The notes: generated by a model from the letters alone, not told the origin. A stretch of 64,000 bases of DNA from Chitinophaga sp. (GCF_039596455.1 NZ_JBCNJR010000008.1:25508-89507), one strand, 5' to 3'; shown: positions 48,853 through 59,850, numbered from the stretch's first letter. Made by a program: numbers and translations.

Positions 48853-48927
48853 AAATCGGAAGACTGCATACTTTCATAGTCCGTTGATTGACCCTGATGC
48901 GTTTAAAAACAAATTGACACTAGCAAG

Positions 48928-48959
48928 GCCGGGCAGTTTCGCACTGGTCCCGGCTTTTT
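48928..48959 (+). terminator. intrinsic terminator after SDR
   Basis: GCCGGG...CCCGGC stem plus TTTTT. Confidence 0.7.
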
Positions 48960-48990: not shown

Positions 48991-49464
48991 ATGATCAAAG
49001 AACCGGAAAGCCTTTACATTATCCGTTTTAATGACTGCGATCCGTTCAGCCATCTGAACAATGCTGCCTACATCAACTATTTTATGAATGCCCGTGAAGA
49101 CCACCTGGCAGACGCTTACGGCATTCAGCTGAAGAGCTACGCGGCCAAAGGGTTTGGCTGGGTAGTGACCCAGCACCAGATAGCCTATCTTAAACCGGCG
49201 CTGGTAGCGGAGCGGGTGTGTATCTTTTCCCGCGTGCTGGATTTTACGGACAGCCAGATAAGGGTGGAAATGTGGATGACGGACGAAGAAAAGAAAAAAG
49301 TGAAATCCGTGCTCTGGTCTACTTTCACCCATATAGACCTGAAAACCGGCCGCCGCGCGGTACATGATGCGGGCATGATGGAGCTGCTGGGCCAGATTGC
49401 GGCAGACCAGCTGCCGGCAGATACCTTTGAGCAGCGGGTAACCGCCATGCGGCAACCGGCCTGA
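48991..49464 (+). CDS. acyl-CoA thioesterase (4HBT/YbgC hot-dog fold)
   Basis: RFNDCDPFSHLNNAAY motif. Confidence 0.9.
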   Translation: MIKEPESLYIIRFNDCDPFSHLNNAAYINYFMNAREDHLADAYGIQLKSYAAKGFGWVVTQHQIAYLKPALVAERVCIFSRVLDFTDSQIRVEMWMTDEEKKKVKSVLWSTFTHIDLKTGRRAVHDAGMMELLGQIAADQLPADTFEQRVTAMRQPA

Positions 49465-49508: not shown

Positions 49509-49529
49509 AGTAAACAGTTGTAGGAAAAC
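49509..49529 (+). repeat. left copy of exact 21-bp direct repeat AGTAAACAGTTGTAGGAAAAC
   Basis: Identical to 56368-56388; followed by a GCCGGGG-stem terminator. Confidence 0.95.
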
Positions 49530-49533
49530 AGCC

Positions 49534-49568
49534 GCCGGGGTAATCGTACCCCGGCTTTTTTATTTTTT
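49534..49568 (+). terminator. intrinsic terminator after thioesterase
   Basis: GCCGGGGT/ACCCCGGC stem and T-tract. Confidence 0.8.
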
Positions 49569-49569
49569 A

Positions 49570-49637
49570 TTTGGCCCGTTCAATTATTTTAATATCTTTG
49601 TCAGGAGTTTAACCAAATGGTTAAATAAGAGAGTTAA
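49570..49637 (+). promoter_or_regulatory. Bacteroidota sigma70 promoter plus TetR operator
   Basis: TTTG (49570-49573)-N19-TATCTTTG (49593-49600); palindrome TTAACCAAATGGTTAA at 49609-49624. Confidence 0.8.
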
Positions 49638-49639
49638 CG

Positions 49640-50248
49640 ATGCAGACATTAAATACCACGGAGCAACAGATCATAGAAGCAGCCAGGAAAATATTCATGC
49701 ACAGGGGCCTGGCCGGCGCCAGGATGCAGGATATTGCGGACGAAGCGGGTATCAACAAGGCCATGCTGCATTATTACTACCGCAGCAAGGAAAAGCTGTT
49801 TGAAATAGTGTTCTGGGAGGCTATAGATCAGCTGCTGGTGAGGGTGAACGCCGTATTGGCGGAAAAAATGCCGGTGCAGGACAAAATAGGTGCGGCCGTG
49901 AGCCATTACATCACCACACTGAGTGACAATCCGTACCTGCCGTTGTTTGTGCTGAATGAAATTCAGCAAAACCCGGAGCGTATTGTACAACGGTTTTTGC
50001 ATGCGCCCCTTTTTCCCAACGTACAGGTATTTATCAAGGAAATAGCGGCGGCCATGGAGCAGGGCGTTTTCAGAAAGGTGAATCCCGGCCAGCTGATGAT
50101 CAGCATTATTTCCATGTGTATATTCCCGTTTGTGGCCAAACCTTTGCTGCAGGCGGCTTTTACAGTAAATGATGTACAGTTCGGCATGATGATGGAAGAG
50201 CGGAAGAAGTTTGTGACGGATTTTGTGATGCACGCATTACGGCCCTGA
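49640..50248 (+). CDS. TetR/AcrR family regulator
   Basis: IIEAARKIF...IADEAGINKAMLHYYYRSKEKLF. Confidence 0.95.
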   Translation: MQTLNTTEQQIIEAARKIFMHRGLAGARMQDIADEAGINKAMLHYYYRSKEKLFEIVFWEAIDQLLVRVNAVLAEKMPVQDKIGAAVSHYITTLSDNPYLPLFVLNEIQQNPERIVQRFLHAPLFPNVQVFIKEIAAAMEQGVFRKVNPGQLMISIISMCIFPFVAKPLLQAAFTVNDVQFGMMMEERKKFVTDFVMHALRP

Positions 50249-50265
50249 TTTTTTTTGTGATGGAA

Positions 50266-50294
50266 TTAACCAAATAGTTAAATAAAAGAGTTAA
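50266..50294 (+). promoter_or_regulatory. second copy of TetR operator/leader upstream of tolC
   Basis: TTAACCAAATAGTTAAATAAAAGAGTTAA matches 49609-49637 at 27 of 29 positions. Confidence 0.8.
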
Positions 50295-50296
50295 TT

Positions 50297-51559
50297 ATGA
50301 AATTCTTTCCCCTGCTGCTTTTGGGGCTGCTGGCCACAGGCCGGTTACACGCCCAGGAGCAGCGCCTCACACTGGATTCCGCCTGGCATTACGCGCGGGA
50401 GTATTACCCCATGCTCAAACAGAAACAGGTGGTAGACGAGGTAACAGCCCTGCAGCTACGTAACATCAAAACCGGTTACCTGCCGCAGGTAGAGCTGGGC
50501 GGCAAGGCCACTTACCAGTCAGACGTAGTGAGCATCCCCATTAAACTACCCAATGTGAACATCCCCACTATTCCCAGAGACCAGTACAATGTTGAGCTGA
50601 TGGTGAAACAAACCATCTGGGACGGCGGCGTCACCGCAGGGCAGCGGGAGCTGCAGCTGGCACAACAGAAAACCGAGCAGCAAAGGGTGGAGGTGGAAAT
50701 GCACAAGCTGCGCCAGCAGGTAATGCAGGTCTATTTTAACGCACTGCTGTGGGAAGAGAACCTGGCCGCCAGGCAGCAGATGCAGGCCGAGGTAAAGCAG
50801 CGGATGGAACGGCTGCAGGCCGGGGTAGACAACGGCACGGTGCTGGCCAGCCAGGTAGACATACTGAAGGCGGAGCTGCTGAAAACGGAGCAGCAGGTAT
50901 ATGAGGCCCAAACAGGCAAACGCGCCGCCATTCAGGTACTGGCCTTGCTCACGGGGAAAGATATAGGGGAAGATGTGCAGCTGCAATTACCCGCCGCTCA
51001 ACCTGAGCAAAGCGGAGAGCTGCAACGCCCTGAGCTGCAGCTGTACCGCTACCAGGCAGACGTACTGCAGCAGCAGGGCCGCCTCACCGGCACGCGCAGC
51101 ATGCCCAGGCTGAGCGCCTTTGCCACCGGCGGTTATGGCCGGCCGGGTCTTAATATGCTTGACAACAAGTTCGACTTCTACTACATAGGCGGCCTGCGCC
51201 TCAACTGGACGCTCTGGAACTGGCGCTACAACCGCACGGAGAAAGCCATTCTCCAGCAGCAGGAGCGTACCGTGGCCGCGCAGTCTGAAACCTTTTCCCT
51301 GCAAACGCGTTCGCAATTGCTGCAGCAGTCTGCCGAGATCAGCAACCTGTCCGCCGCGCTGGAAAAAGACAAGGAAATTGTTTCCCTGCGCAAAAGCGTG
51401 CGCACGGTATCTGCCGCGCAGCTGGACAACGGGGTGATGACGGTACATGACTATCTTACCGACCTGCACGCAGAAACGCAGGCGGTGATAGCGGAGAAAA
51501 CGCACCACATACAATGGGTCTACGCCACATTGAATTACCAGGTTATTAAAGGCAATTAA
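50297..51559 (+). CDS. TolC family outer-membrane efflux protein
   Basis: Signal peptide, YLPQVEL, QTIWDGG, coiled-coil helices; heads the efflux operon. Confidence 0.9.
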   Translation: MKFFPLLLLGLLATGRLHAQEQRLTLDSAWHYAREYYPMLKQKQVVDEVTALQLRNIKTGYLPQVELGGKATYQSDVVSIPIKLPNVNIPTIPRDQYNVELMVKQTIWDGGVTAGQRELQLAQQKTEQQRVEVEMHKLRQQVMQVYFNALLWEENLAARQQMQAEVKQRMERLQAGVDNGTVLASQVDILKAELLKTEQQVYEAQTGKRAAIQVLALLTGKDIGEDVQLQLPAAQPEQSGELQRPELQLYRYQADVLQQQGRLTGTRSMPRLSAFATGGYGRPGLNMLDNKFDFYYIGGLRLNWTLWNWRYNRTEKAILQQQERTVAAQSETFSLQTRSQLLQQSAEISNLSAALEKDKEIVSLRKSVRTVSAAQLDNGVMTVHDYLTDLHAETQAVIAEKTHHIQWVYATLNYQVIKGN

Positions 51560-51570
51560 AACATACACTG

Positions 51571-52467
51571 ATGAAAACAACGGTAACGGCCATATCAATA
51601 CTAACGCTCTTAACCGCCTGCGGCAACAGGGAAAACGCGGCGGACGCCTACGGGAACTTTGAGTCCACAGAAGTGATCGTGTCTGCGGAGGCCACCGGCC
51701 GCCTGCTCACTTTCAGCGTGGAGGAAGGCATGCAGCTGGCCGCCAATGCCCTGGTGGGCGGTATAGACTCCGTGCAGCTCAACCTGCGCAAAGCGCAATT
51801 GGGCGCCAATATCAAGGCGGTGCTGAGCAAAAAGCCGGAGGTAAACCCTCAACTGGAAGTGATCCGCCAGCAGATAGCCACCCAGCAGAAAGAAAGGCAG
51901 CGCATCCAGAACCTGCTGAAGGCCAACGCCGCCACACCCAAACAACTGGACGATATCAACGCGGCCATTGCCGTGTTGGAAAAACAATATGCCTCCACCG
52001 CCTCCACTCTCCATACACAGGTAAGCGGCATCAGCAGTGAAACGCAGCCCCTGCAGCTACAGGTAGAGCAGGTGAAGGAGCAACTGGCCCAAAGCCGCGT
52101 TATCAACCCCGTGGCCGGTACCGTGCTCACCAAGTACGTGGAAAAAGGAGAGGTGGTGAACTACGGCAAACCGCTATACAAGATAGCAGACCTCAATACC
52201 ATGTACCTCCGCGCCTACGTGAGCGGCAGCCAGCTGCCGCGCCTGAAAACCGGCCAGCAGGTAACGGTGCAGACAGACATGCCTGACGGCAGCCTCAAAA
52301 ACTGGCCGGGTACGGTAAGCTGGATAGCGTCTGAAGCGGAGTTTACGCCCAAAACCATCCAGACAAGGGAGGAAAGGGTACAGCTGGTATACGCCGTAAA
52401 AGTGCGCGTACAAAATGACGGCAGCCTCAAAATAGGCATGCCGGGAGAATTAAGGATCACTCAATAA
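51571..52467 (+). CDS. HlyD/YbhG-like membrane fusion protein (lipoprotein)
   Basis: LTAC lipobox; GNFESTEVIVSAEATG, AEFTPKTIQT, VYAVKV, LKIGMP. Confidence 0.92.
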   Translation: MKTTVTAISILTLLTACGNRENAADAYGNFESTEVIVSAEATGRLLTFSVEEGMQLAANALVGGIDSVQLNLRKAQLGANIKAVLSKKPEVNPQLEVIRQQIATQQKERQRIQNLLKANAATPKQLDDINAAIAVLEKQYASTASTLHTQVSGISSETQPLQLQVEQVKEQLAQSRVINPVAGTVLTKYVEKGEVVNYGKPLYKIADLNTMYLRAYVSGSQLPRLKTGQQVTVQTDMPDGSLKNWPGTVSWIASEAEFTPKTIQTREERVQLVYAVKVRVQNDGSLKIGMPGELRITQ

Positions 52468-52474
52468 TTGCGTT

Positions 52475-53389
52475 ATGCAACCCATTGTGATAGAAAACGT
52501 ACACAAGAGTTTTGGTGATGTAAAGGCCCTCCACAACATTTCTTTTGCGGTGGAAGAAGGGGAGCTGTTTGGCCTCATCGGGCCGGACGGCGCGGGAAAG
52601 TCTACCCTGTTCCGCATACTGGCCACACTGCTGCTGGCAGACAAGGGGAACGCCTTTGTGAACGGCCTGCATGTGGTGAAAGATTACAAGGCCATCCGCC
52701 GGCAGGTGGGTTATATGCCGGGGCGCTTCTCCCTCTACCAGGACCTCACCATTGAAGAGAACCTGAATTTCTTCGCCACTATTTTTAAAACCAGTGTGGA
52801 AGAGAATTATGATCTCATCAAAGACATCTACGATCAGATAGCGCCCTTCAAAAACCGTCCGGCAGGCAAACTTTCCGGCGGTATGAAACAGAAGCTCGCA
52901 CTGTGTTGCGCGCTGGTGCACAAACCAGCCGTGCTGTTCCTGGATGAGCCCACCACGGGCGTAGACCCCGTTTCCCGCAAAGAGTTCTGGGAAATGCTGC
53001 AGCGCCTGCGGCAGAAAGGCATCCCCATCCTCGTATCCACTCCTTACATGGATGAAGCTATGCTCTGCGACCGGGTTGCGCTGATCCAGAAAGGGGAGAT
53101 CATGCAGATCAACACGCCCGGCAACATCGTAAAAAGCTACGGCAAAAAGATATGGGCTATGCGGGCAGACAATATGTTCCGTCTCATACAAGACCTGCGG
53201 GCCTTTGAAGGAACAGACAGCTGTTTTGCCTTTGGGGAATACCTGCATGTAACGCTGCATGTACCCGTAGCAGCAGCGGAAGCCTACCTGGCCCCGTTGC
53301 AGCACGGCAACCTGGTGATCAAACCCGCGCAGCCCGGCATTGAAGATGCTTTCATGCAGCTGATGCAGGAACAAAATGAAACGGTATGA
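52475..53389 (+). CDS. ABC transporter ATP-binding protein (YbhF N-half-like)
   Basis: GPDGAGKS, LSGGMKQK, LDEPTTGVDP. Confidence 0.95.
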   Translation: MQPIVIENVHKSFGDVKALHNISFAVEEGELFGLIGPDGAGKSTLFRILATLLLADKGNAFVNGLHVVKDYKAIRRQVGYMPGRFSLYQDLTIEENLNFFATIFKTSVEENYDLIKDIYDQIAPFKNRPAGKLSGGMKQKLALCCALVHKPAVLFLDEPTTGVDPVSRKEFWEMLQRLRQKGIPILVSTPYMDEAMLCDRVALIQKGEIMQINTPGNIVKSYGKKIWAMRADNMFRLIQDLRAFEGTDSCFAFGEYLHVTLHVPVAAAEAYLAPLQHGNLVIKPAQPGIEDAFMQLMQEQNETV

Positions 53390-54135
53390 GCAAAGCTATC
53401 GTTACCCGCAACCTCACCAAACGTTTTGGCGATTTTATTGCCACCAACGCCATCACTTTTGAAGTGGAGCAGGGGGAAATATTCGGCTTCCTGGGGGCCA
53501 ACGGCGCCGGGAAAACCACCGCCATGCGCATGCTGTGCGGCTTGTTGAAACCTTCTTCCGGTGAAGCTACAGTAGCCGGCTTCAATATTTTCACACAGGC
53601 TGAGCAGGTAAAGCGGCGCATCGGCTATATGAGCCAGAAGTTCTCGCTTTACGAAGATCTGACGGTGAAAGAGAACATCCGCTTCTACGGCGGTATTTAT
53701 GGCCTGAGCCACCAGCAGATCAAAAGCAAAACGGAAGAGCTGCTGGGAAAGCTGCAGCTGCAAAAGGAGGCGGATCACCTGGTCAGCTCCCTGCCGCTGG
53801 GCTGGAAACAAAAATTGTCTTTTTCCATTGCCGTGCTGCACAACCCGTCTATTGTGTTCCTGGATGAGCCTACGGGCGGGGTAGACCCCATTACCCGGCG
53901 CCAGTTCTGGGACCTGATCTACGAAGCGGCAGACGGCGGCGTCACCATTTTCGTGACCACGCACTATATGGACGAAGCGGAGTATTGCAACCGCATTTCC
54001 ATTATGGTAGACGGCAGAATAAAAGCGCTGGACACGCCGGCCCGCCTGAAGGAACAATACCGGGCAGATTCCATGAACGAGGTGTTCCTTCAGCTGGCGC
54101 GCGCCAAACCGGCGGAAAACAATTCATCATCTTAA
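53386..54135 (+). CDS. ABC transporter ATP-binding protein (YbhF C-half-like)
   Basis: GANGAGKT, LPLGWKQK, LDEPTGGVDP. Confidence 0.95.
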   Translation: MSKAIVTRNLTKRFGDFIATNAITFEVEQGEIFGFLGANGAGKTTAMRMLCGLLKPSSGEATVAGFNIFTQAEQVKRRIGYMSQKFSLYEDLTVKENIRFYGGIYGLSHQQIKSKTEELLGKLQLQKEADHLVSSLPLGWKQKLSFSIAVLHNPSIVFLDEPTGGVDPITRRQFWDLIYEAADGGVTIFVTTHYMDEAEYCNRISIMVDGRIKALDTPARLKEQYRADSMNEVFLQLARAKPAENNSSS

Positions 54136-54144
54136 CTGACCATC

Positions 54145-55251
54145 ATGCGGGAGTTCTTCGTTTTTGTCCGAAAGGAATGTTATCATATTTTCCGTGACAG
54201 GCGCACCCTGCTCATCCTCTTCGGCATGCCCGTAGTGCTGATTGTGCTGTTCGGCTTTGCCATCACGAATGAGGTGCGCAATGTGAAAATAGCGGTGCTT
54301 GACCAGGCGCAGGATGCCTATAGCCGGCAGCTCACAGACCGCATCACCGCATCTGGGTATTTCACGGTAGACCGGTACCTGCATGCGGAGCAAGATATTG
54401 AGCCCGTTTTCAGGAAAGGGGAGGTGAAAATGGTGATGGTAGTACCGCCCAATTTCGGCCATAAATTTTACCACGGCCGCAAAGCGCCGCTGCAGCTGCT
54501 TACAGACGCATCAGATCCCAACACCGGCACCACGCTGGTGAATTACGCCAACGCCATCATTCTCCGGTACCAGCAGGAAATGACGGGGAAGATCACTTTG
54601 CCGCTCACCATTCAGCCGGAGGCCCGCATGATCTACAACCCCTCGCTGAAAAGCGTGTTCCTGTTCGTTCCCGGAGTAATGACGCTGATACTCATGCTGG
54701 TCTGCGCCATGATGACCTCTATCACCATCACCCGGGAAAAAGAGCTGGGCACCATGGAAATACTGCTGGTTTCTCCGCTGAAACCCGTTACCATCATAGC
54801 GGGCAAGGTGATACCCTACATCGCCCTTTCTTTCATTATTGCTCTTACCATATTGGCTATGGGTTTCTGGATATTCGGCATGCCCATCAGGGGCAGCCTG
54901 CTATTGTTGCTGCTGGAGTGTTTGCTGTTTTGCCTGGCCGCGCTTTCACTGGGCATCCTCATATCCAGCCTGACCAATTCCCAGCAAACGGCCATGATGA
55001 TCTCCATGATGGGCCTGCTGCTGCCTACCATACTGCTTTCCGGCTTTGTGTTCCCGCTGGAGAGTATGCCGAAGCCGCTGCAGATATTCGCCAATATTGT
55101 TCCGGCCAAGTGGTTCATCATTATTTTGAAAGATGTGATGCTCAAAGGCGCCGGCCTGCGCCAGGTATGGCAGCCCACGCTCATCCTGGGCGGCATGACG
55201 CTGTTCTTCCTGCTGGTGAGCGTTCGCAAATTTAAAACCCGCTTAAGCTGA
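54145..55251 (+). CDS. ABC-2 permease (YbhS-like)
   Basis: KECYHIFRD, REKELGTMEILLVSP, LLSGFVFP. Confidence 0.93.
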   Translation: MREFFVFVRKECYHIFRDRRTLLILFGMPVVLIVLFGFAITNEVRNVKIAVLDQAQDAYSRQLTDRITASGYFTVDRYLHAEQDIEPVFRKGEVKMVMVVPPNFGHKFYHGRKAPLQLLTDASDPNTGTTLVNYANAIILRYQQEMTGKITLPLTIQPEARMIYNPSLKSVFLFVPGVMTLILMLVCAMMTSITITREKELGTMEILLVSPLKPVTIIAGKVIPYIALSFIIALTILAMGFWIFGMPIRGSLLLLLLECLLFCLAALSLGILISSLTNSQQTAMMISMMGLLLPTILLSGFVFPLESMPKPLQIFANIVPAKWFIIILKDVMLKGAGLRQVWQPTLILGGMTLFFLLVSVRKFKTRLS

Positions 55252-56369
55252 TGCGTACCATCTTCTTCATATTGCAAAAAGAGTTCCTGCAGGTGTTCCG
55301 CAACCGCTCCATGCTGCCCATCATTTTTGTGGTGCCCGTGGTGCAGCTGCTGGTGCTGGCCTTTGCCGCCAATTACGAGATCAGGAACCTCTCTGTAGAC
55401 GTGGTGGATTACGACGGTTCCACCTGGAGCCGCCAGCTGCGTGACAAGCTGCTTTCTTCCGGTTATTTCACCCTGCACCGCCAGTCTTACAGCCACAAGG
55501 AAGCGTTTGAAGACCTGGAGGCCAACCGGGCAGACCTTGTGCTCACTATTCCCGCACATTTTGAGCGGGACCTGGTGCGGGAAAATGAGGCTAAAGTGCA
55601 GCTGCTCGTAAACGCCATCAACGGCAGCAAGGCCGGCCTGGCCTATGGCTACGCCGCCAGCATTATTGGCCAGTTCAACCGGCAGGTGCGCATGGACTGG
55701 CTGGCGCTGGATGAAGACGATGGTCCGGAGCATATAGACGTTACCTACCGCTACTGGTACAACCCCACGCTTAACTACAAGTTTTTTATGGTGCCTGGTA
55801 TACTGGTGGTGCTGGTTACCCTTATAGGCGCATTTTTATCCGGGATGAACATTGTGAAGGAAAAGGAAATTGGTACCATTGAGCAGCTGAACGTAACCCC
55901 CATCCGCAAGCATCATTTTATAATCGGCAAGCTATTGCCCTTCTGGATCATAGCCTTGTTTGAACTGGCCTTTGGCCTGACGGTGGGCAAGCTGGTGTTC
56001 AGCCTGCCCTTTGAAGGCAATATTGCCTGGGTGTTCCTTTTTGCGGCCGTGTACCTGCTGGTGATGCTGGGGCTGGGCCTGCTGATTTCCACCTTTACGG
56101 AAACGCAGCAGCAGAGCATGTTCATCACCTGGTTTTTCCTGATCATTTTTATCCTGATGAGCGGGCTGTTCACGCCCATAGAAAGCATGCCCGCATGGGC
56201 GCAAAAGCTTACGCTCATTAACCCCGTAGCTTATTTTGTAAAGGTGATCCGCATGGTGATGCAGAAGGGGAGCGGCTGGGCGGACATACAACATTATTTC
56301 GGCATCATGCTGCTGATGGCCGCCGTGGTCAATGGTGTGGCCGTATGGAACTACCGTAAAACGGTTTAG
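55251..56369 (+). CDS. ABC-2 permease (YbhR-like)
   Basis: KEFLQVFRN, KEKEIGTIEQLNVTP, LMSGLFTP. Confidence 0.93.
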   Translation: MRTIFFILQKEFLQVFRNRSMLPIIFVVPVVQLLVLAFAANYEIRNLSVDVVDYDGSTWSRQLRDKLLSSGYFTLHRQSYSHKEAFEDLEANRADLVLTIPAHFERDLVRENEAKVQLLVNAINGSKAGLAYGYAASIIGQFNRQVRMDWLALDEDDGPEHIDVTYRYWYNPTLNYKFFMVPGILVVLVTLIGAFLSGMNIVKEKEIGTIEQLNVTPIRKHHFIIGKLLPFWIIALFELAFGLTVGKLVFSLPFEGNIAWVFLFAAVYLLVMLGLGLLISTFTETQQQSMFITWFFLIIFILMSGLFTPIESMPAWAQKLTLINPVAYFVKVIRMVMQKGSGWADIQHYFGIMLLMAAVVNGVAVWNYRKTV

Positions 56370-56388
56370 TAAACAGTTGTAGGAAAAC
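56368..56388 (+). repeat. right copy of exact 21-bp direct repeat AGTAAACAGTTGTAGGAAAAC
   Basis: Identical to 49509-49529; begins within the permease stop codon. Confidence 0.95.
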
Positions 56389-56392
56389 GGAC

Positions 56393-56424
56393 GGCCGGGG
56401 CATTTTTGCCCTGGCCTTCTTTTT
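56393..56424. terminator. terminator between convergent permease and MocR genes
   Basis: GGCCGGGGC/GCCCTGGCC stem plus TTCTTTTT. Confidence 0.7.
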
Positions 56425-56425
56425 C

Positions 56426-57844
56426 TCACCGCAGCGCCTGGTGTACCAGCTTCCCGATGGTTTTTAACCCGTCATCCACCTGTTTGCTCCAGGGGTTGGC
56501 AAAGCTGATGCGAAGGCAGTTATTATACCTGTCCTGCAGGGAGAAGATGCGCCCGGGCGCAAAGCTGATCTTGCGTTTCATGGCCTGCTCGTACAGCTCA
56601 ATGGTGTTCACCTGCTGGTTCAGCTCCAGCCACAGCACATAGCCGCCCTGCGGGCGGGTTACACAGGTGTCTTCCGGAAAGTAGTCTGCTATGGCCTGCT
56701 GGTAGCGGAGGCATTGGGTGTGCAGCAGCGTGCGGATGTTGCGCAGGTGGTGCTCATAACGGCCGTTTTCTAAAAAGTGGCCAATGGCCGCCTGCGGCAG
56801 CGTAGCGCTGGAAACGGAGTGGTTCAGCTTGAGGCGGAGCACCTTGTCTTTGTACTTGCCCGGCATGATCCAGCCTACGCGGTAGCCCGGCGCCAGGGAT
56901 TTGGAGAAGGAGTTGCAGTAAAGCACGTTGCCGGTGCGGTCATACTGTTTGCAGCTGCTGGGGCGGGTTTTGCCGAAATAGGTATCCCCGTAAATATCGT
57001 CCTCTATCAGCGGAATGTCGTATTTGTTCATGAGGCGCACCAGCTCCCGTTTGTTTTTGTCTGGCATGCAGGAGCCGATGGGGTTGTTGAAGTTGGTAAC
57101 AAATACGCAAGCCTTTATTTTGAACTTGGGAATAGCTTTGTCAAGGTACTCCAGGTCTACGCCGCATACCGGGTTGGTAGGCACTTCCAGCACCTTCAGG
57201 CCCAGGCTTTCCGCCAGCTGGAAGGTGCCGCAATAGGCCGGGCTTTCCAGCGCAATGACGTCTCCCGGCTGCGTGGTGGCCGAGAGGCAGAGCGTTAAAG
57301 CGTCCATACAGCCTGTTGTGGTCACGATATCATCCTCTGTAATAGTACCGCCCCATTGCAGGCTGAGGCGGGCAATTTGCCGCCTTAAATTCACGTTGCC
57401 CTGCAGGTTCTCGTAACTGGTGCCGTTGGCGGGCAGGCTGCGCATGGCCTGTATAAGCGATTTGCTCAGTTTGGCGGCGGGCAGCTGGCTCTCATGCGGC
57501 GCGGCTACGGAAAAACGCAGCACGTCGTCAGGCGAAAGGTGGTAGAACACTTCGGTGATCATGTCACTCACGTTCACTTCCGTGGCCTTTTTTACCGGCC
57601 GGCTGATCTTGGGCATTTCCGGCAGGCGGCGCGGGGAAAAACGCACGTAATAGCCCGATTTGGGCCGCGGTTCAATGTAGCCCTTGCTTTCCAGGTGATA
57701 ATACGCCTGGAAAACAGTGCTCATGCTGATGCCCTGCTCCTTGCTGAGGGAGCGTACAGAAGGCAGTTTGTCGCCAATACGGATGACCTCTTTTTCGATC
57801 ATCGTTTGTATACGTTCCGCCACCTGCAGGTATAAATGGTCCAT
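56426..57844 (-). CDS. MocR/GabR family regulator (GntR HTH plus PLP aminotransferase domain)
   Basis: KLPSVRSLS...STVFQAY...KSGYYV HTH; IEDDIY, SFSKSLAPGYRVGW PLP-lysine motif. Confidence 0.95.
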   Translation of the reverse strand: MDHLYLQVAERIQTMIEKEVIRIGDKLPSVRSLSKEQGISMSTVFQAYYHLESKGYIEPRPKSGYYVRFSPRRLPEMPKISRPVKKATEVNVSDMITEVFYHLSPDDVLRFSVAAPHESQLPAAKLSKSLIQAMRSLPANGTSYENLQGNVNLRRQIARLSLQWGGTITEDDIVTTTGCMDALTLCLSATTQPGDVIALESPAYCGTFQLAESLGLKVLEVPTNPVCGVDLEYLDKAIPKFKIKACVFVTNFNNPIGSCMPDKNKRELVRLMNKYDIPLIEDDIYGDTYFGKTRPSSCKQYDRTGNVLYCNSFSKSLAPGYRVGWIMPGKYKDKVLRLKLNHSVSSATLPQAAIGHFLENGRYEHHLRNIRTLLHTQCLRYQQAIADYFPEDTCVTRPQGGYVLWLELNQQVNTIELYEQAMKRKISFAPGRIFSLQDRYNNCLRISFANPWSKQVDDGLKTIGKLVHQALR

Positions 57845-57859
57845 AACGCCAATTTTGTA

Positions 57860-57895
57860 CTGATATGGTCAAAATTACGGAAATGATATCTGTTT
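57860..57895. promoter_or_regulatory. putative MocR box 1 (CTGATATGGTCAAAATT-N11-ATCTGTTT)
   Basis: In the divergent mocR/dinB spacer; matching copy at 59815-59850. Confidence 0.75.
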
Positions 57896-59814: not shown

Positions 59815-59850
59815 CTGATATGGTCAAAATTTACAAAACTGAATCTGTTT
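59815..59850. promoter_or_regulatory. putative MocR box 2
   Basis: CTGATATGGTCAAAATT-N11-ATCTGTTT, same spacing as box 1; upstream of the decarboxylase. Confidence 0.75.

What the first reader, a model, noticed from the sequence alone, without database searches (positions are those of the whole stretch)
49509..56424. Efflux operon bracketed by an exact 21-bp direct repeat and look-alike terminators: a captured islet?
Seen: AGTAAACAGTTGTAGGAAAAC at 49509-49529 and 56368-56388, each followed 4-5 nt later by a GCCGGGG-armed hairpin; between them lie exactly tetR-tolC-hlyD-ABC-ABC-permease-permease with its own promoter. Under uniform composition about 2x10^9 position pairs against 4^21 (about 4x10^12) makes chance unlikely. 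Recombining the repeats would leave thioesterase and mocR convergent on one terminator, a sensible empty site. No integrase or transposase is visible. Inference: insertion with site duplication, or an excisable/amplifiable resistance cassette.
Basis: partly seen in the sequence, partly recalled or inferred. Interest (0 to 1): 0.65.

Follow-up and report, generated by a model that had tools for sequence, protein, structure and literature searches.

The report
Twin conserved terminator modules flank efflux operon
The identical 21-base repeat on either side of this Chitinophaga efflux-pump operon is not an insertion scar or a scattered repeat: it is part of a strongly conserved, two-copies-per-genome transcription-terminator module whose extra sequence probably has an RNA-level role that is still unknown.

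Summary
AGTAAACAGTTGTAGGAAAAC occurs exactly twice in the window (49509, 56368). Each copy lies 4-5 nt before a GCCGGGG-stem hairpin and a T run, and together they bracket a TetR/OMP/MFP/2xABC/2xABC-2 efflux operon.

The repeat is not dispersed. Pattern scans of about 185,000 species genomes and of metagenomes find the motif-plus-hairpin only in Chitinophaga, never more than twice per genome. One copy always follows the thioesterase gene (site A) and the other follows the last permease gene (site B).

The operon is not a recent islet.
- It sits beside mocR in both deep clades of the genus.
- Its tree agrees with the mocR tree.
- Its GC content matches the flanks.
- It carries no recombinase.
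- The source metagenome shows even depth and no listed joint between the repeats.

Species that lack the operon are best read as two or three losses. Two of them keep one diverged module next to the mocR stop.

The hairpin behaves as an RNA terminator on the + strand: 98% of cells are paired, four pairs show compensatory change, and there are 23 G·U against 0 A·C. The 17-nt core is invariant at both sites, although the two copies keep distinct spacers, so each copy appears to be under selection.

My best reading is a lineage-specific 3'-UTR/terminator RNA module, with site A copied from site B. Its function is inferred, not shown.

The parts
49509..49529 (+). Module A, conserved single-stranded tract (the 21-mer), 45 nt after the thioesterase stop codon
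   Evidence: exact match. AGTAAACAGTTGTAGG is invariant in the site-A copies of 14 Chitinophaga species.
49534..49561 (+). Module A terminator: 9-bp GC stem, 4-nt loop (49534-49555) and a T6 run (49556-49561)
56368..56388 (+). Module B, conserved tract (the 21-mer). Its first 2 nt overlap the permease stop codon TAG
   Evidence: conserved after the Perm2 gene in 18 species.
56393..56425 (+). Module B terminator: 10-bp stem with one G·U pair (56393-56416) and a T-rich tail that ends 1 nt before the mocR stop codon
48991..49464 (+). 4HBT-type thioesterase, last gene of the ArsR-SDR-thioesterase unit. Module A lies in its 3' UTR
49570..49625 (+). Operon promoter-like TTTG-N19-TATCTTTG and the TetR operator-like palindrome TTTAACCAAATGGTTAAA
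   Evidence: Sequence reading. The palindrome is conserved in L001-L003, L013 and L074. A metatranscriptome contig begins at 49639.
49640..56369 (+). Efflux operon: TetR (49640-50248), OEP (50297-51559), HlyD-type adaptor (51571-52467), ABC ATPases (52475-53389, 53386-54135), ABC-2 permeases (54145-55251, 55251-56369)
56426..57844 (-). MocR (GntR + aminotransferase fold) regulator, convergent on module B. Its stop codon lies 9 nt from the hairpin

Best explanation
The 21-mer is the conserved 5' tract of a roughly 55-nt module with this layout: (T)AGTAAACAGTTGTAGG(T/A)AAC(A)G, a short spacer, a GCCGGGG...CCCCGGC hairpin, then a U run.

Shown:
- The module exists in exactly two paralogous copies per genome in one Chitinophaga clade.
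- Both copies have the same orientation. Copy A ends the thioesterase unit and copy B ends the efflux operon.
- The hairpin is selected as RNA on the + strand, so it acts as an intrinsic terminator for those two transcripts.

Inferred history:
- The B position, 9 nt from the mocR stop codon, is ancestral to the genus. It persists, in diverged form, in species that have lost the operon.
- Copy A is a later copy of B. It keeps the TAG that serves as the permease stop codon at B. It may be a remnant of a tandem duplication of the operon that later collapsed.

The 21/21 identity in this genome is mainly the result of purifying selection on each copy, not a fresh insertion scar.

Inferred function, not shown: the invariant tract is an RNA-level element in both 3' UTRs. 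It could be the seed of a 3'-UTR-derived small RNA or a binding site for a protein or RNA. It sits single-stranded just before the terminator, and it could couple the two operons. It could also pair with any mocR transcript that reads through module B.
For: Copy number and position:
- The genome scan gave 27 Chitinophaga hits in about 17 species, at most 2 per genome. Pairs lie 6.85-7.9 kb apart (23 kb in C. barathri). There were 6 chance hits elsewhere.
- A is always after the thioesterase gene and B always after Perm2.
- A hairpin-free motif scan of metagenomes found only 5 A/B sites plus unrelated matches, about as many as I estimated chance would give.
- Covariance model R1 finds full-length matches only at A/B sites in 326 kb, including the whole window.

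RNA hairpin:
- 97.9% of cells are paired, against 35-57% when the partners are slid.
- 4 of 9 pairs show compensatory change.
- There are 23 G·U pairs and 0 A·C in 21 distinct hairpins.

Selection at each site:
- The A spacer is AGCC in 11 of 14 species and never in B.
- The flanks cannot be aligned between subclades, yet the 17-nt core is invariant at both sites.

History:
- A module sits by the mocR stop codon in C. pendula, L072 and L073.
- The rooted mocR tree and the congruent operon tree agree.

Small-RNA-like architecture: in operon-less species the motif lies between a long, covarying stem-loop and the terminator.
Against: - No transcript data resolve a discrete small RNA or 3' ends. 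The metatranscriptome contigs are thin and some run through the terminators.
- No target or binding partner was found. A duplex scan of the window returned, among its top hits, only the motif's own antisense.
- The two scan patterns forced part of the motif to be exact, so divergent copies were missed and the invariance is partly due to ascertainment. Independently sampled genomes show turnover: C. niabensis lacks A, and C. skermanii and MM2321 lack both.
- In the window lineage both copies changed from GGTAAC to GGAAAAC. This hints at short-tract gene conversion, which would weaken the argument for independent selection.
Confidence: 0.6

Rival explanations
1. First reader's idea. The efflux operon is a captured islet that inserted between the thioesterase gene and mocR and duplicated its target. 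Or it is a cassette that still excises or amplifies by recombination between the 21-bp repeats.
For: - The repeats are direct, specific to this locus and not dispersed.
- Five Chitinophaga species lack the operon at this locus.
- Two of them (L072, L073) carry one module between the ArsR-SDR unit and mocR. The sequence to its left matches what lies upstream of tetR in the operon-bearing MM2321.
Against: - The operon tree is congruent with the mocR tree (100/100 split). The operon is present in all sampled clade I species and at the base of clade II, so the absences are losses.
- GC content is flat.
- There is no recombinase gene.
- Eight conspecific contigs all keep the operon.
- Depth in the source sample is equal inside and outside the operon, and no listed joint links the repeats.
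- Copy A is known only in clade I, while the losses are in clade II.
- The repeated unit is a roughly 55-nt functional terminator, not a short target duplication.
Confidence: 0.1
2. The conserved tract is a double-stranded DNA site for a regulator, and the two copies flank the operon. Some copies read as a tandem half-site, GTAAACAG-N6-GTAAACAG. The sites could act as roadblocks or insulators, or as anchors for a DNA loop.
For: - The tract is invariant, unlike ordinary sequence upstream of terminators.
- Several B copies contain a perfect 8-bp direct repeat with a 14-bp period (L017, L021, L022, L032, L045).
- There are exactly two sites per genome, bracketing one operon.
Against: - It matches none of the local operators. 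The TetR palindrome, the ArsR ATCGAT boxes and the 36-bp MocR motif are all different.
- The position of A is fixed relative to the thioesterase stop codon and its hairpin. Its distance to the tetR promoter ranges from about 85 nt to about 16 kb.
- Both copies have the same orientation relative to the upstream gene and always abut a hairpin selected at the RNA level.
Confidence: 0.15
3. The tract has no function of its own. Copy A is a neutral relic of a collapsed tandem duplication (amplification) of the operon, and the two copies stay alike through occasional gene conversion and slow decay.
For: - A retains the TAG that is the permease stop codon at B.
- Both copies in the window and in C. 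alhagiae share the derived GGAAAAC, whereas the nearest outgroup has GGAAAC at A and GGTAAC at B.
- A has been lost in the C. niabensis lineage without obvious consequence.
Against: - The core is invariant across species whose neighbouring intergenic DNA cannot be aligned and whose proteins are only 65-85% identical.
- Site-specific spacers (AGCC at A only) show that conversion is not sweeping across the modules.
- The B-position motif survives, in diverged form, even across the deep clade I / clade II split.
Confidence: 0.1
4. The repeat is a dispersed terminator-associated family (REP/MITE-like) that happens to have two copies in this window.
For: GC-rich GCCGGG...CCCGGC-TTTTT hairpins without the motif do recur nearby. 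Examples are the SDR-thioesterase gap at 48927-48958 and a hairpin-only copy next to mocR in strain E66.
Against: - There are at most 2 motif-plus-hairpin copies per genome across about 17 species.
- A hairpin-free motif scan of metagenomes found no third Chitinophaga context.
- There are no further hits in the 64-kb window or in 326 kb of loci.
Confidence: 0.03

Closest known systems
Intrinsic (Rho-independent) terminators, including lineage-specific families with conserved sequence such as the TRIT motif of Mycobacterium tuberculosis (recalled from memory, not checked here)
   Same: A GC-rich hairpin and U run directly after the last gene of an operon. Stem pairing is kept through G·U pairs and compensatory changes. 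An A-rich tract before the stem gives partial two-way symmetry at the convergent mocR junction.
   Different: A 17-21-nt invariant tract precedes the hairpin, which ordinary terminators in this window lack. The module occurs only twice per genome, whereas TRIT-type motifs occur many times.
3'-UTR-derived small RNAs of enterobacteria, such as CpxQ, SroC and DapZ (seed directly upstream of the parental mRNA's terminator; recalled from memory), and sibling small RNAs that share a seed
   Same: The conservation pattern is alike: a variable coding end, then a sharply conserved single-stranded tract followed by a terminator hairpin. Two loci share the same tract. In operon-less species the tract lies between a structured stem-loop and the terminator.
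   Different: No small transcript, processing site, chaperone or target has been shown. Bacteroidota lack Hfq and ProQ (from memory). No Rfam family matches.
Genomic islets and cassettes bounded by direct repeats (att sites of integrative elements, integron attC, target-site duplications)
   Same: Direct repeats bracket a self-contained, self-regulated resistance-type operon. The operon is present in some species of the genus and absent in others.
   Different: There is no recombinase and no GTTRRRY/RYYYAAC cores. The operon is ancestral and vertically inherited. The repeat is a functional terminator module conserved across species. No excision signal was found.
CecR (YbiH)-YbhGFSR ABC-2 efflux system of Escherichia coli (PMC12998191) and the related RbbA/YhhJ family
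   Same: A TetR-family regulator gene lies upstream of a membrane-fusion protein, two ATPase domains and two ABC-2 permeases.
   Different: Here the two ATPase domains are separate proteins, and a TolC-like outer-membrane gene is part of the operon. All NCBIfam scores are below the curated cut-offs, so this is a relative, not an equivalog. The substrate is unknown.

Membership tests
Intrinsic terminator | GC-rich stem-loop followed by a U run, just downstream of a stop codon on the transcribed strand | tested here: met
   Both sites have 9-10-bp stems with 7-8 GC pairs and T-rich tails. They lie 69 nt (A) and 23 nt (B) after the stop codons.
Intrinsic terminator | Pairing maintained at the RNA level on the sense strand | tested here: met
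   97.9% paired, 4 pairs with changes on both sides, and slid controls at 35-57%; 23 G·U and 0 A·C.
Intrinsic terminator | Transcripts end at the U run | tested here: inconclusive
   Only thin metatranscriptome contigs were available. Some span the hairpins, and DNA carry-over cannot be excluded.
3'-UTR-derived small RNA | Conserved unpaired tract immediately 5' of the terminator of a protein-coding operon | tested here: met
3'-UTR-derived small RNA | A discrete small transcript and a base-pairing target | not testable with these tools
   No isolate RNA-seq was found. The whole genome was unavailable for target prediction. The window-only duplex scan was uninformative.
Mobile islet / insertion with target duplication | Recombinase or transposase gene, or its remnant, inside or beside the element | tested here: not met
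   Seven efflux genes fill the interval, and the flanks are a thioesterase gene and mocR.
Mobile islet / insertion with target duplication | Empty site in close relatives, and a patchy distribution that disagrees with the host phylogeny | tested here: not met
   present in all clade I species; operon tree congruent with the mocR tree. Operon-less sites occur only in distant clade II species, where they read as losses.
Mobile islet / insertion with target duplication | Compositional anomaly | tested here: not met
   GC is 0.53-0.57 inside the operon and 0.49-0.58 outside.
Mobile islet / insertion with target duplication | Excised circle, deletion junction or altered depth in reads | tested here: not met
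   depth 22.3 against 22.9, and none of the listed joints links 49.5 kb to 56.4 kb. These are contigs only, and 6 joints were not listed.
Dispersed repeat (REP/MITE-like) | Many copies per genome in unrelated contexts | tested here: not met
   at most 2 per genome, always in the same two contexts. The window's own genome could not be scanned.
Integron attC site | R''/R' core sites (RYYYAAC ... GTTRRRY) and an integron integrase nearby | tested here: not met
   Sequence reading: GTTGTAG does not fit GTTRRRY. No integrase is present.
CecR-YbhGFSR-type ABC-2 efflux system | TetR regulator + membrane-fusion protein + two nucleotide-binding domains + two ABC-2 permeases | tested here: met
   (Pfam domains); best NCBIfam hits are RbbA, DrrA/DrrB and PRK03598 HlyD, all below cut-off, so this is family-level similarity only.

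The most novel reading that the evidence does not exclude
The module is an undescribed regulatory RNA element of the genus Chitinophaga. Its invariant tract ACAGUUGUAGG(U)AAC would be released with its terminator from two differently regulated operons: the ArsR-controlled thioesterase unit and the TetR-controlled efflux pump. The two RNAs would act as sibling small RNAs, or as a shared recognition site. In trans they would also be a 21-nt perfect antisense to any mocR transcript that reads through module B. This would link envelope or drug efflux to the MocR regulon. In operon-less species the same tract would be the seed of a stand-alone three-stem-loop RNA of about 160 nt.
Probability: 0.2. 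Interest if true: 0.55.

Novelty: new variant of a known kind. Interest (0 to 1): 0.35.

Why it matters
The case shows that an exact direct repeat bracketing a resistance-type operon need not mark mobility. Here the repeat is a conserved terminator-linked module kept in two copies for a long evolutionary time.

If the invariant tract proves to be an RNA seed or a binding site, it would be one of few post-transcriptional control elements known in soil Bacteroidota. These bacteria lack the classical small-RNA chaperones. The element would tie an ABC-2 efflux pump to neighbouring metabolic and regulatory genes.

The locus is also a clear example of a recombination-prone junction. The 3' end of mocR has seen genes gained and lost repeatedly next to look-alike terminators.

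Tried and rejected
I replaced them with one pattern scan of species genomes and one of metagenomes.
- Counting copies by laying source-run contigs on a 58-nt module stretch. Only the site-A contig was laid. The site-B contig, the intended positive control, was not, so the method was too insensitive and I dropped it.
- RNA evidence (after one busy failure). Only low-depth soil metatranscriptome contigs from strain variants were found. They do not resolve 3' ends.
- Rfam. The only result was a sub-threshold chance hit (ar35, 26 bits against a cut-off of 45).
- MocR operator, TetR palindrome and ArsR ATCGAT boxes. None resembles the motif, so I rejected all three as its binding partners.
- Integron attC and CTnDOT-type core sites: no match on reading the sequence.
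- A metagenome hit with the motif followed by a different hairpin (L048/L054) turned out to be an AT-rich phage-like contig, so a chance match.
- RNA duplex scan of the window for targets. The 12 best hits printed were all the motif's own antisense. Shuffled motifs reached -16 to -23 kcal/mol.
- A small stem-loop within the motif (GUUGU/ACAGC). It is not maintained in several B copies, so I rejected it.
- Earlier scan notes searched by sequence and by words: nothing on this element.


Full report
**Observation**

The 21-mer AGTAAACAGTTGTAGGAAAAC occurs exactly twice in the window, at 49509-49529 and 56368-56388 on the + strand. There is no third match even with three mismatches, and none in shuffled controls.

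Each copy is followed after 4 nt by a strong hairpin with a GCCGGGG arm and a T run. The hairpins lie at 49534-49555 and 56393-56416.

Pfam confirms the gene content. In order:
- a 4HBT thioesterase (48991-49464)
- TetR
- a TolC-like OEP
- a HlyD-type adaptor
- two ABC ATPases
- two ABC-2 permeases (through 56369)
- a convergent MocR regulator (56426-57844, - strand)

NCBIfam places the transporter near the RbbA / DrrAB / YbhG families but below the curated cut-offs. This makes it a relative of the E. coli CecR-YbhGFSR system (PMC12998191, found).

At site B the repeat overlaps the permease stop codon. At site A it begins 45 nt after the thioesterase stop codon.

MocR homologues identify the genome as Chitinophaga: 98% to C. 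alhagiae T22, 95% to C. lutea and 90% to a C. niabensis record. Genome-wide statements therefore rest on collection scans, not on the window's own assembly.

**Not a dispersed repeat**

I scanned one genome per species (about 185,000) with ACAGTTGTAGGWAAN{4,10}CCGGGG. It returned 33 stretches. Twenty-seven are from about 17 Chitinophaga species and six are isolated hits in unrelated phyla, roughly as many as I estimated chance would give.

No Chitinophaga genome has more than two hits. Where two lie on one contig they are 6.85-7.9 kb apart, except in C. barathri where they are 23 kb apart.

A tblastn mapping of the window's proteins shows that one copy always follows the thioesterase gene (site A) and the other always follows the second permease gene (site B).

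A second scan, of metagenome contigs, used the hairpin-free motif GTAAACAGTTGTAGGWAA. It found five further A or B sites and 18 unrelated matches. One of those, a phage-like contig, was inspected. No third Chitinophaga context appeared.

A covariance model of the module finds full-length matches only at A/B sites in 326 kb of sequence, including the whole 64-kb window. Elsewhere it finds only weak, hairpin-only resemblances.

**Not a recent islet**

The operon lies between the same neighbours in these relatives:
- C. niabensis, and a record filed as C. pinensis isolate 3
- eight metagenome contigs that encode an identical MocR
- every clade I genome retrieved by the scan, wherever the fetched stretches reach that far

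It is also adjacent to mocR in the more distant C. skermanii, C. pendula and sp. MM2321.

A mocR tree rooted on non-Chitinophaga outgroups has two clades. Clade I is entirely operon-positive. In clade II, C. pendula and MM2321 are positive, while C. solisilvae, C. nivalis, C. dinghuensis, C. silvatica and sp. 212800010-3 lack the operon.

A concatenated tree of the seven operon proteins separates pendula + MM2321 from the clade I taxa at 100/100, so it agrees with the mocR tree. The operon is therefore ancestral and vertically inherited. The absences are two or three losses, or one loss and one re-acquisition from within the clade.

Further evidence against a recent event:
- GC content is flat across the region.
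- No recombinase is present.
- In the run that holds the window at full identity, contig depth is 22.3 outside and 22.9 inside the operon, and no listed joint connects the repeats.

**What the repeat is**

Aligned across species, the repeat unit is about 55 nt:

(T)AGTAAACAGTTGTAGG(T/A)AAC(A)G - spacer - GCCGGGG(Y)A - 4-5-nt loop - complementary 3' arm ending CC(C/T)GGC - T run

The hairpin is maintained as RNA on the + strand:
- 97.9% of cells pair, against 35-57% when the partners are slid.
- Four of nine pairs show changes on both sides, for example C-G, U·G and U-A at the ninth... at the eighth pair.
- All 23 non-Watson-Crick pairs in 21 distinct hairpins are G·U. None is A·C, which is what G·U on the opposite strand would look like.

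The modules are therefore terminators for the thioesterase and efflux transcripts.

The tract in front of the hairpin is what is unusual. AGTAAACAGTTGTAGG is invariant in all 14 site-A copies, and ACAGTTGTAGG(W)AA in all 18 site-B copies. The sequence on either side cannot be aligned between subclades.

Part of that invariance was imposed by the search patterns. However, the AGTAA prefix, the CAG suffix and the 3' arm were not constrained.

The copies also keep site-specific signatures. The spacer is AGCC in 11 of 14 A copies and in no B copy. The two copies are thus not being homogenised wholesale, and the shared core is best explained by selection at each site.

**History**

The B position is old. 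C. pendula has the module after the permease gene. The operon-less C. silvatica and sp. 212800010-3 carry one diverged module 9 nt from the mocR stop codon (55 and 54 bits):

TAGTTGTAGGTTAAGC...CCGGGATATTCTTATCCCGG-TTAATTTTTT

Copy A is known only in clade I, always behind the thioesterase gene, which is itself specific to clade I. Most A copies begin TTAGTAA. They thereby retain the TAG that is the permease stop codon at B, even though the thioesterase stops upstream. I read this as A having been copied from B.

A tandem duplication of the operon followed by collapse would leave exactly such a relic. That is inference.

In the window and in C. alhagiae both copies read GGAAAAC. The nearest outgroup MAG has GGAAAC at A and GGTAAC at B. 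This may reflect parallel A-run slippage or a short gene-conversion tract, and I cannot tell which.

Turnover is real. C. niabensis-type genomes lack A. In C. skermanii and MM2321 the permease and mocR stop codons overlap, with no module at all.

**The junction is plastic**

- In strain E66 a MacB/FtsX-type permease gene sits between module B and mocR, and a hairpin-only copy lies next to mocR.
- In C. barathri an ECF sigma / FecR / TonB-receptor block follows module A.
- Close strains of the window's species differ by an 88-nt indel directly after the T run of A.
- In clade II, the sequence left of the single module is a conserved TTGATTTACAGT box followed by a long stem-loop. In the operon-bearing MM2321 the same sequence lies upstream of tetR.

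The endpoints of the operon's loss therefore coincide with the two terminator positions. Because no A-type module is documented in clade II, recombination between the repeats is not shown to be the cause.

**Function**

The tract matches none of the local operators: the TetR palindrome, the ArsR ATCGAT boxes, or the MocR motif seen at 57860-57895 and 59815-59850.

Its position is fixed relative to the upstream stop codon and the hairpin, and it is always on the sense strand. Its distance to the tetR promoter varies from about 85 nt to about 16 kb. That favours an RNA-level role in the 3' UTRs.

In the operon-less species the tract lies unpaired between a long stem-loop and the terminator. That stem-loop has seven pairs with compensatory change, though only three sequences were available. 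This is the usual layout of a bacterial small RNA.

No Rfam family matches.

RNA from site A would also be perfectly complementary over 21 nt to any mocR transcript that runs through module B.

None of this is demonstrated. The available metatranscriptome contigs are too thin to map ends. I rate the structural and evolutionary reading as well supported and the regulatory-RNA role as a minority-probability inference.

**Verdict**

The islet interpretation is only partly supported, because the repeats are locus-specific and operon-less junctions exist, but the operon is ancestral and stable here.

The feature is a lineage-specific, two-copy terminator module with an invariant leader tract. It is a modestly interesting new variant of a known kind.

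Noticed in passing
L072:11430-11600 (-), L073:11430-11600 (-), L074:18175-18305 (-); also L071:14799-14810 and L075:11660-11671: Clade II Chitinophaga share a conserved intergenic element downstream of the SDR gene(s). It has a TTGATTTACAGT box that can pair with GAATC, and a long stem-loop with 7 compensatory pairs. In L072 and L073 these are followed by the motif and the terminator. It has no Rfam match and is a candidate stand-alone non-coding RNA of about 160 nt.
   Followed up: partly
L025:800-3460 (Chitinophaga sp. E66): A MacB/FtsX-type permease gene is inserted between module B and mocR. It appears frameshifted in this assembly. A hairpin-only copy of the terminator lies next to the mocR stop codon (L025:807-839, 34.5 bits).
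   Followed up: partly
L037:1700-8000 (C. barathri): An ECF sigma factor, a FecR anti-sigma and a TonB-dependent receptor follow module A directly. Modules A and B are 23 kb apart in this species, compared with about 7 kb elsewhere.
   Followed up: partly
window 49561/49562, compared with L005:18203-18466 and L006: Strains with an identical MocR carry an extra 88 nt immediately after the T run of module A. The point just behind this terminator is an indel hot spot.
   Followed up: partly
window 49636-49640: A soil metatranscriptome contig from a relative about 95% identical begins at 49639, with adapter sequence before it. This is 1 nt before the tetR ATG, which suggests a leaderless or nearly leaderless tetR mRNA downstream of TATCTTTG (49593-49600).
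   Followed up: no
L013:11416-11419 and L074:11425-11428: In C. skermanii and sp. MM2321 the last permease gene and mocR converge so tightly that their stop codons overlap by 4 nt (TTAA and CTAG). No terminator lies between them.
   Followed up: no
window 48927-48958: The SDR-thioesterase gap holds a third GGCCGGG...CCCGGC-TTTTT hairpin without the motif. Relatives have weak hairpin-only model hits at the same place. Just before it, 48877-48900 resembles the C-terminal coding end of SDR genes in other species, so the SDR gene may be shortened here.
   Followed up: no
L003:18290-18480 (-) and L076:11430-12260 (-): Long tandem-repeat arrays fill the variable spacers. In the record filed as C. 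pinensis isolate 3 the units resemble GCGTACAATTACAGCGCAATTA and lie between module A and tetR. In C. dinghuensis the repeats lie between the SDR genes and mocR, and that assembly has a run of N there.
   Followed up: no
L008 (Logan contig, 8946 nt): One metagenome contig of the window's species ends exactly at the ACAG of module A. This may be low coverage or a graph branch at the repeat.
   Followed up: no
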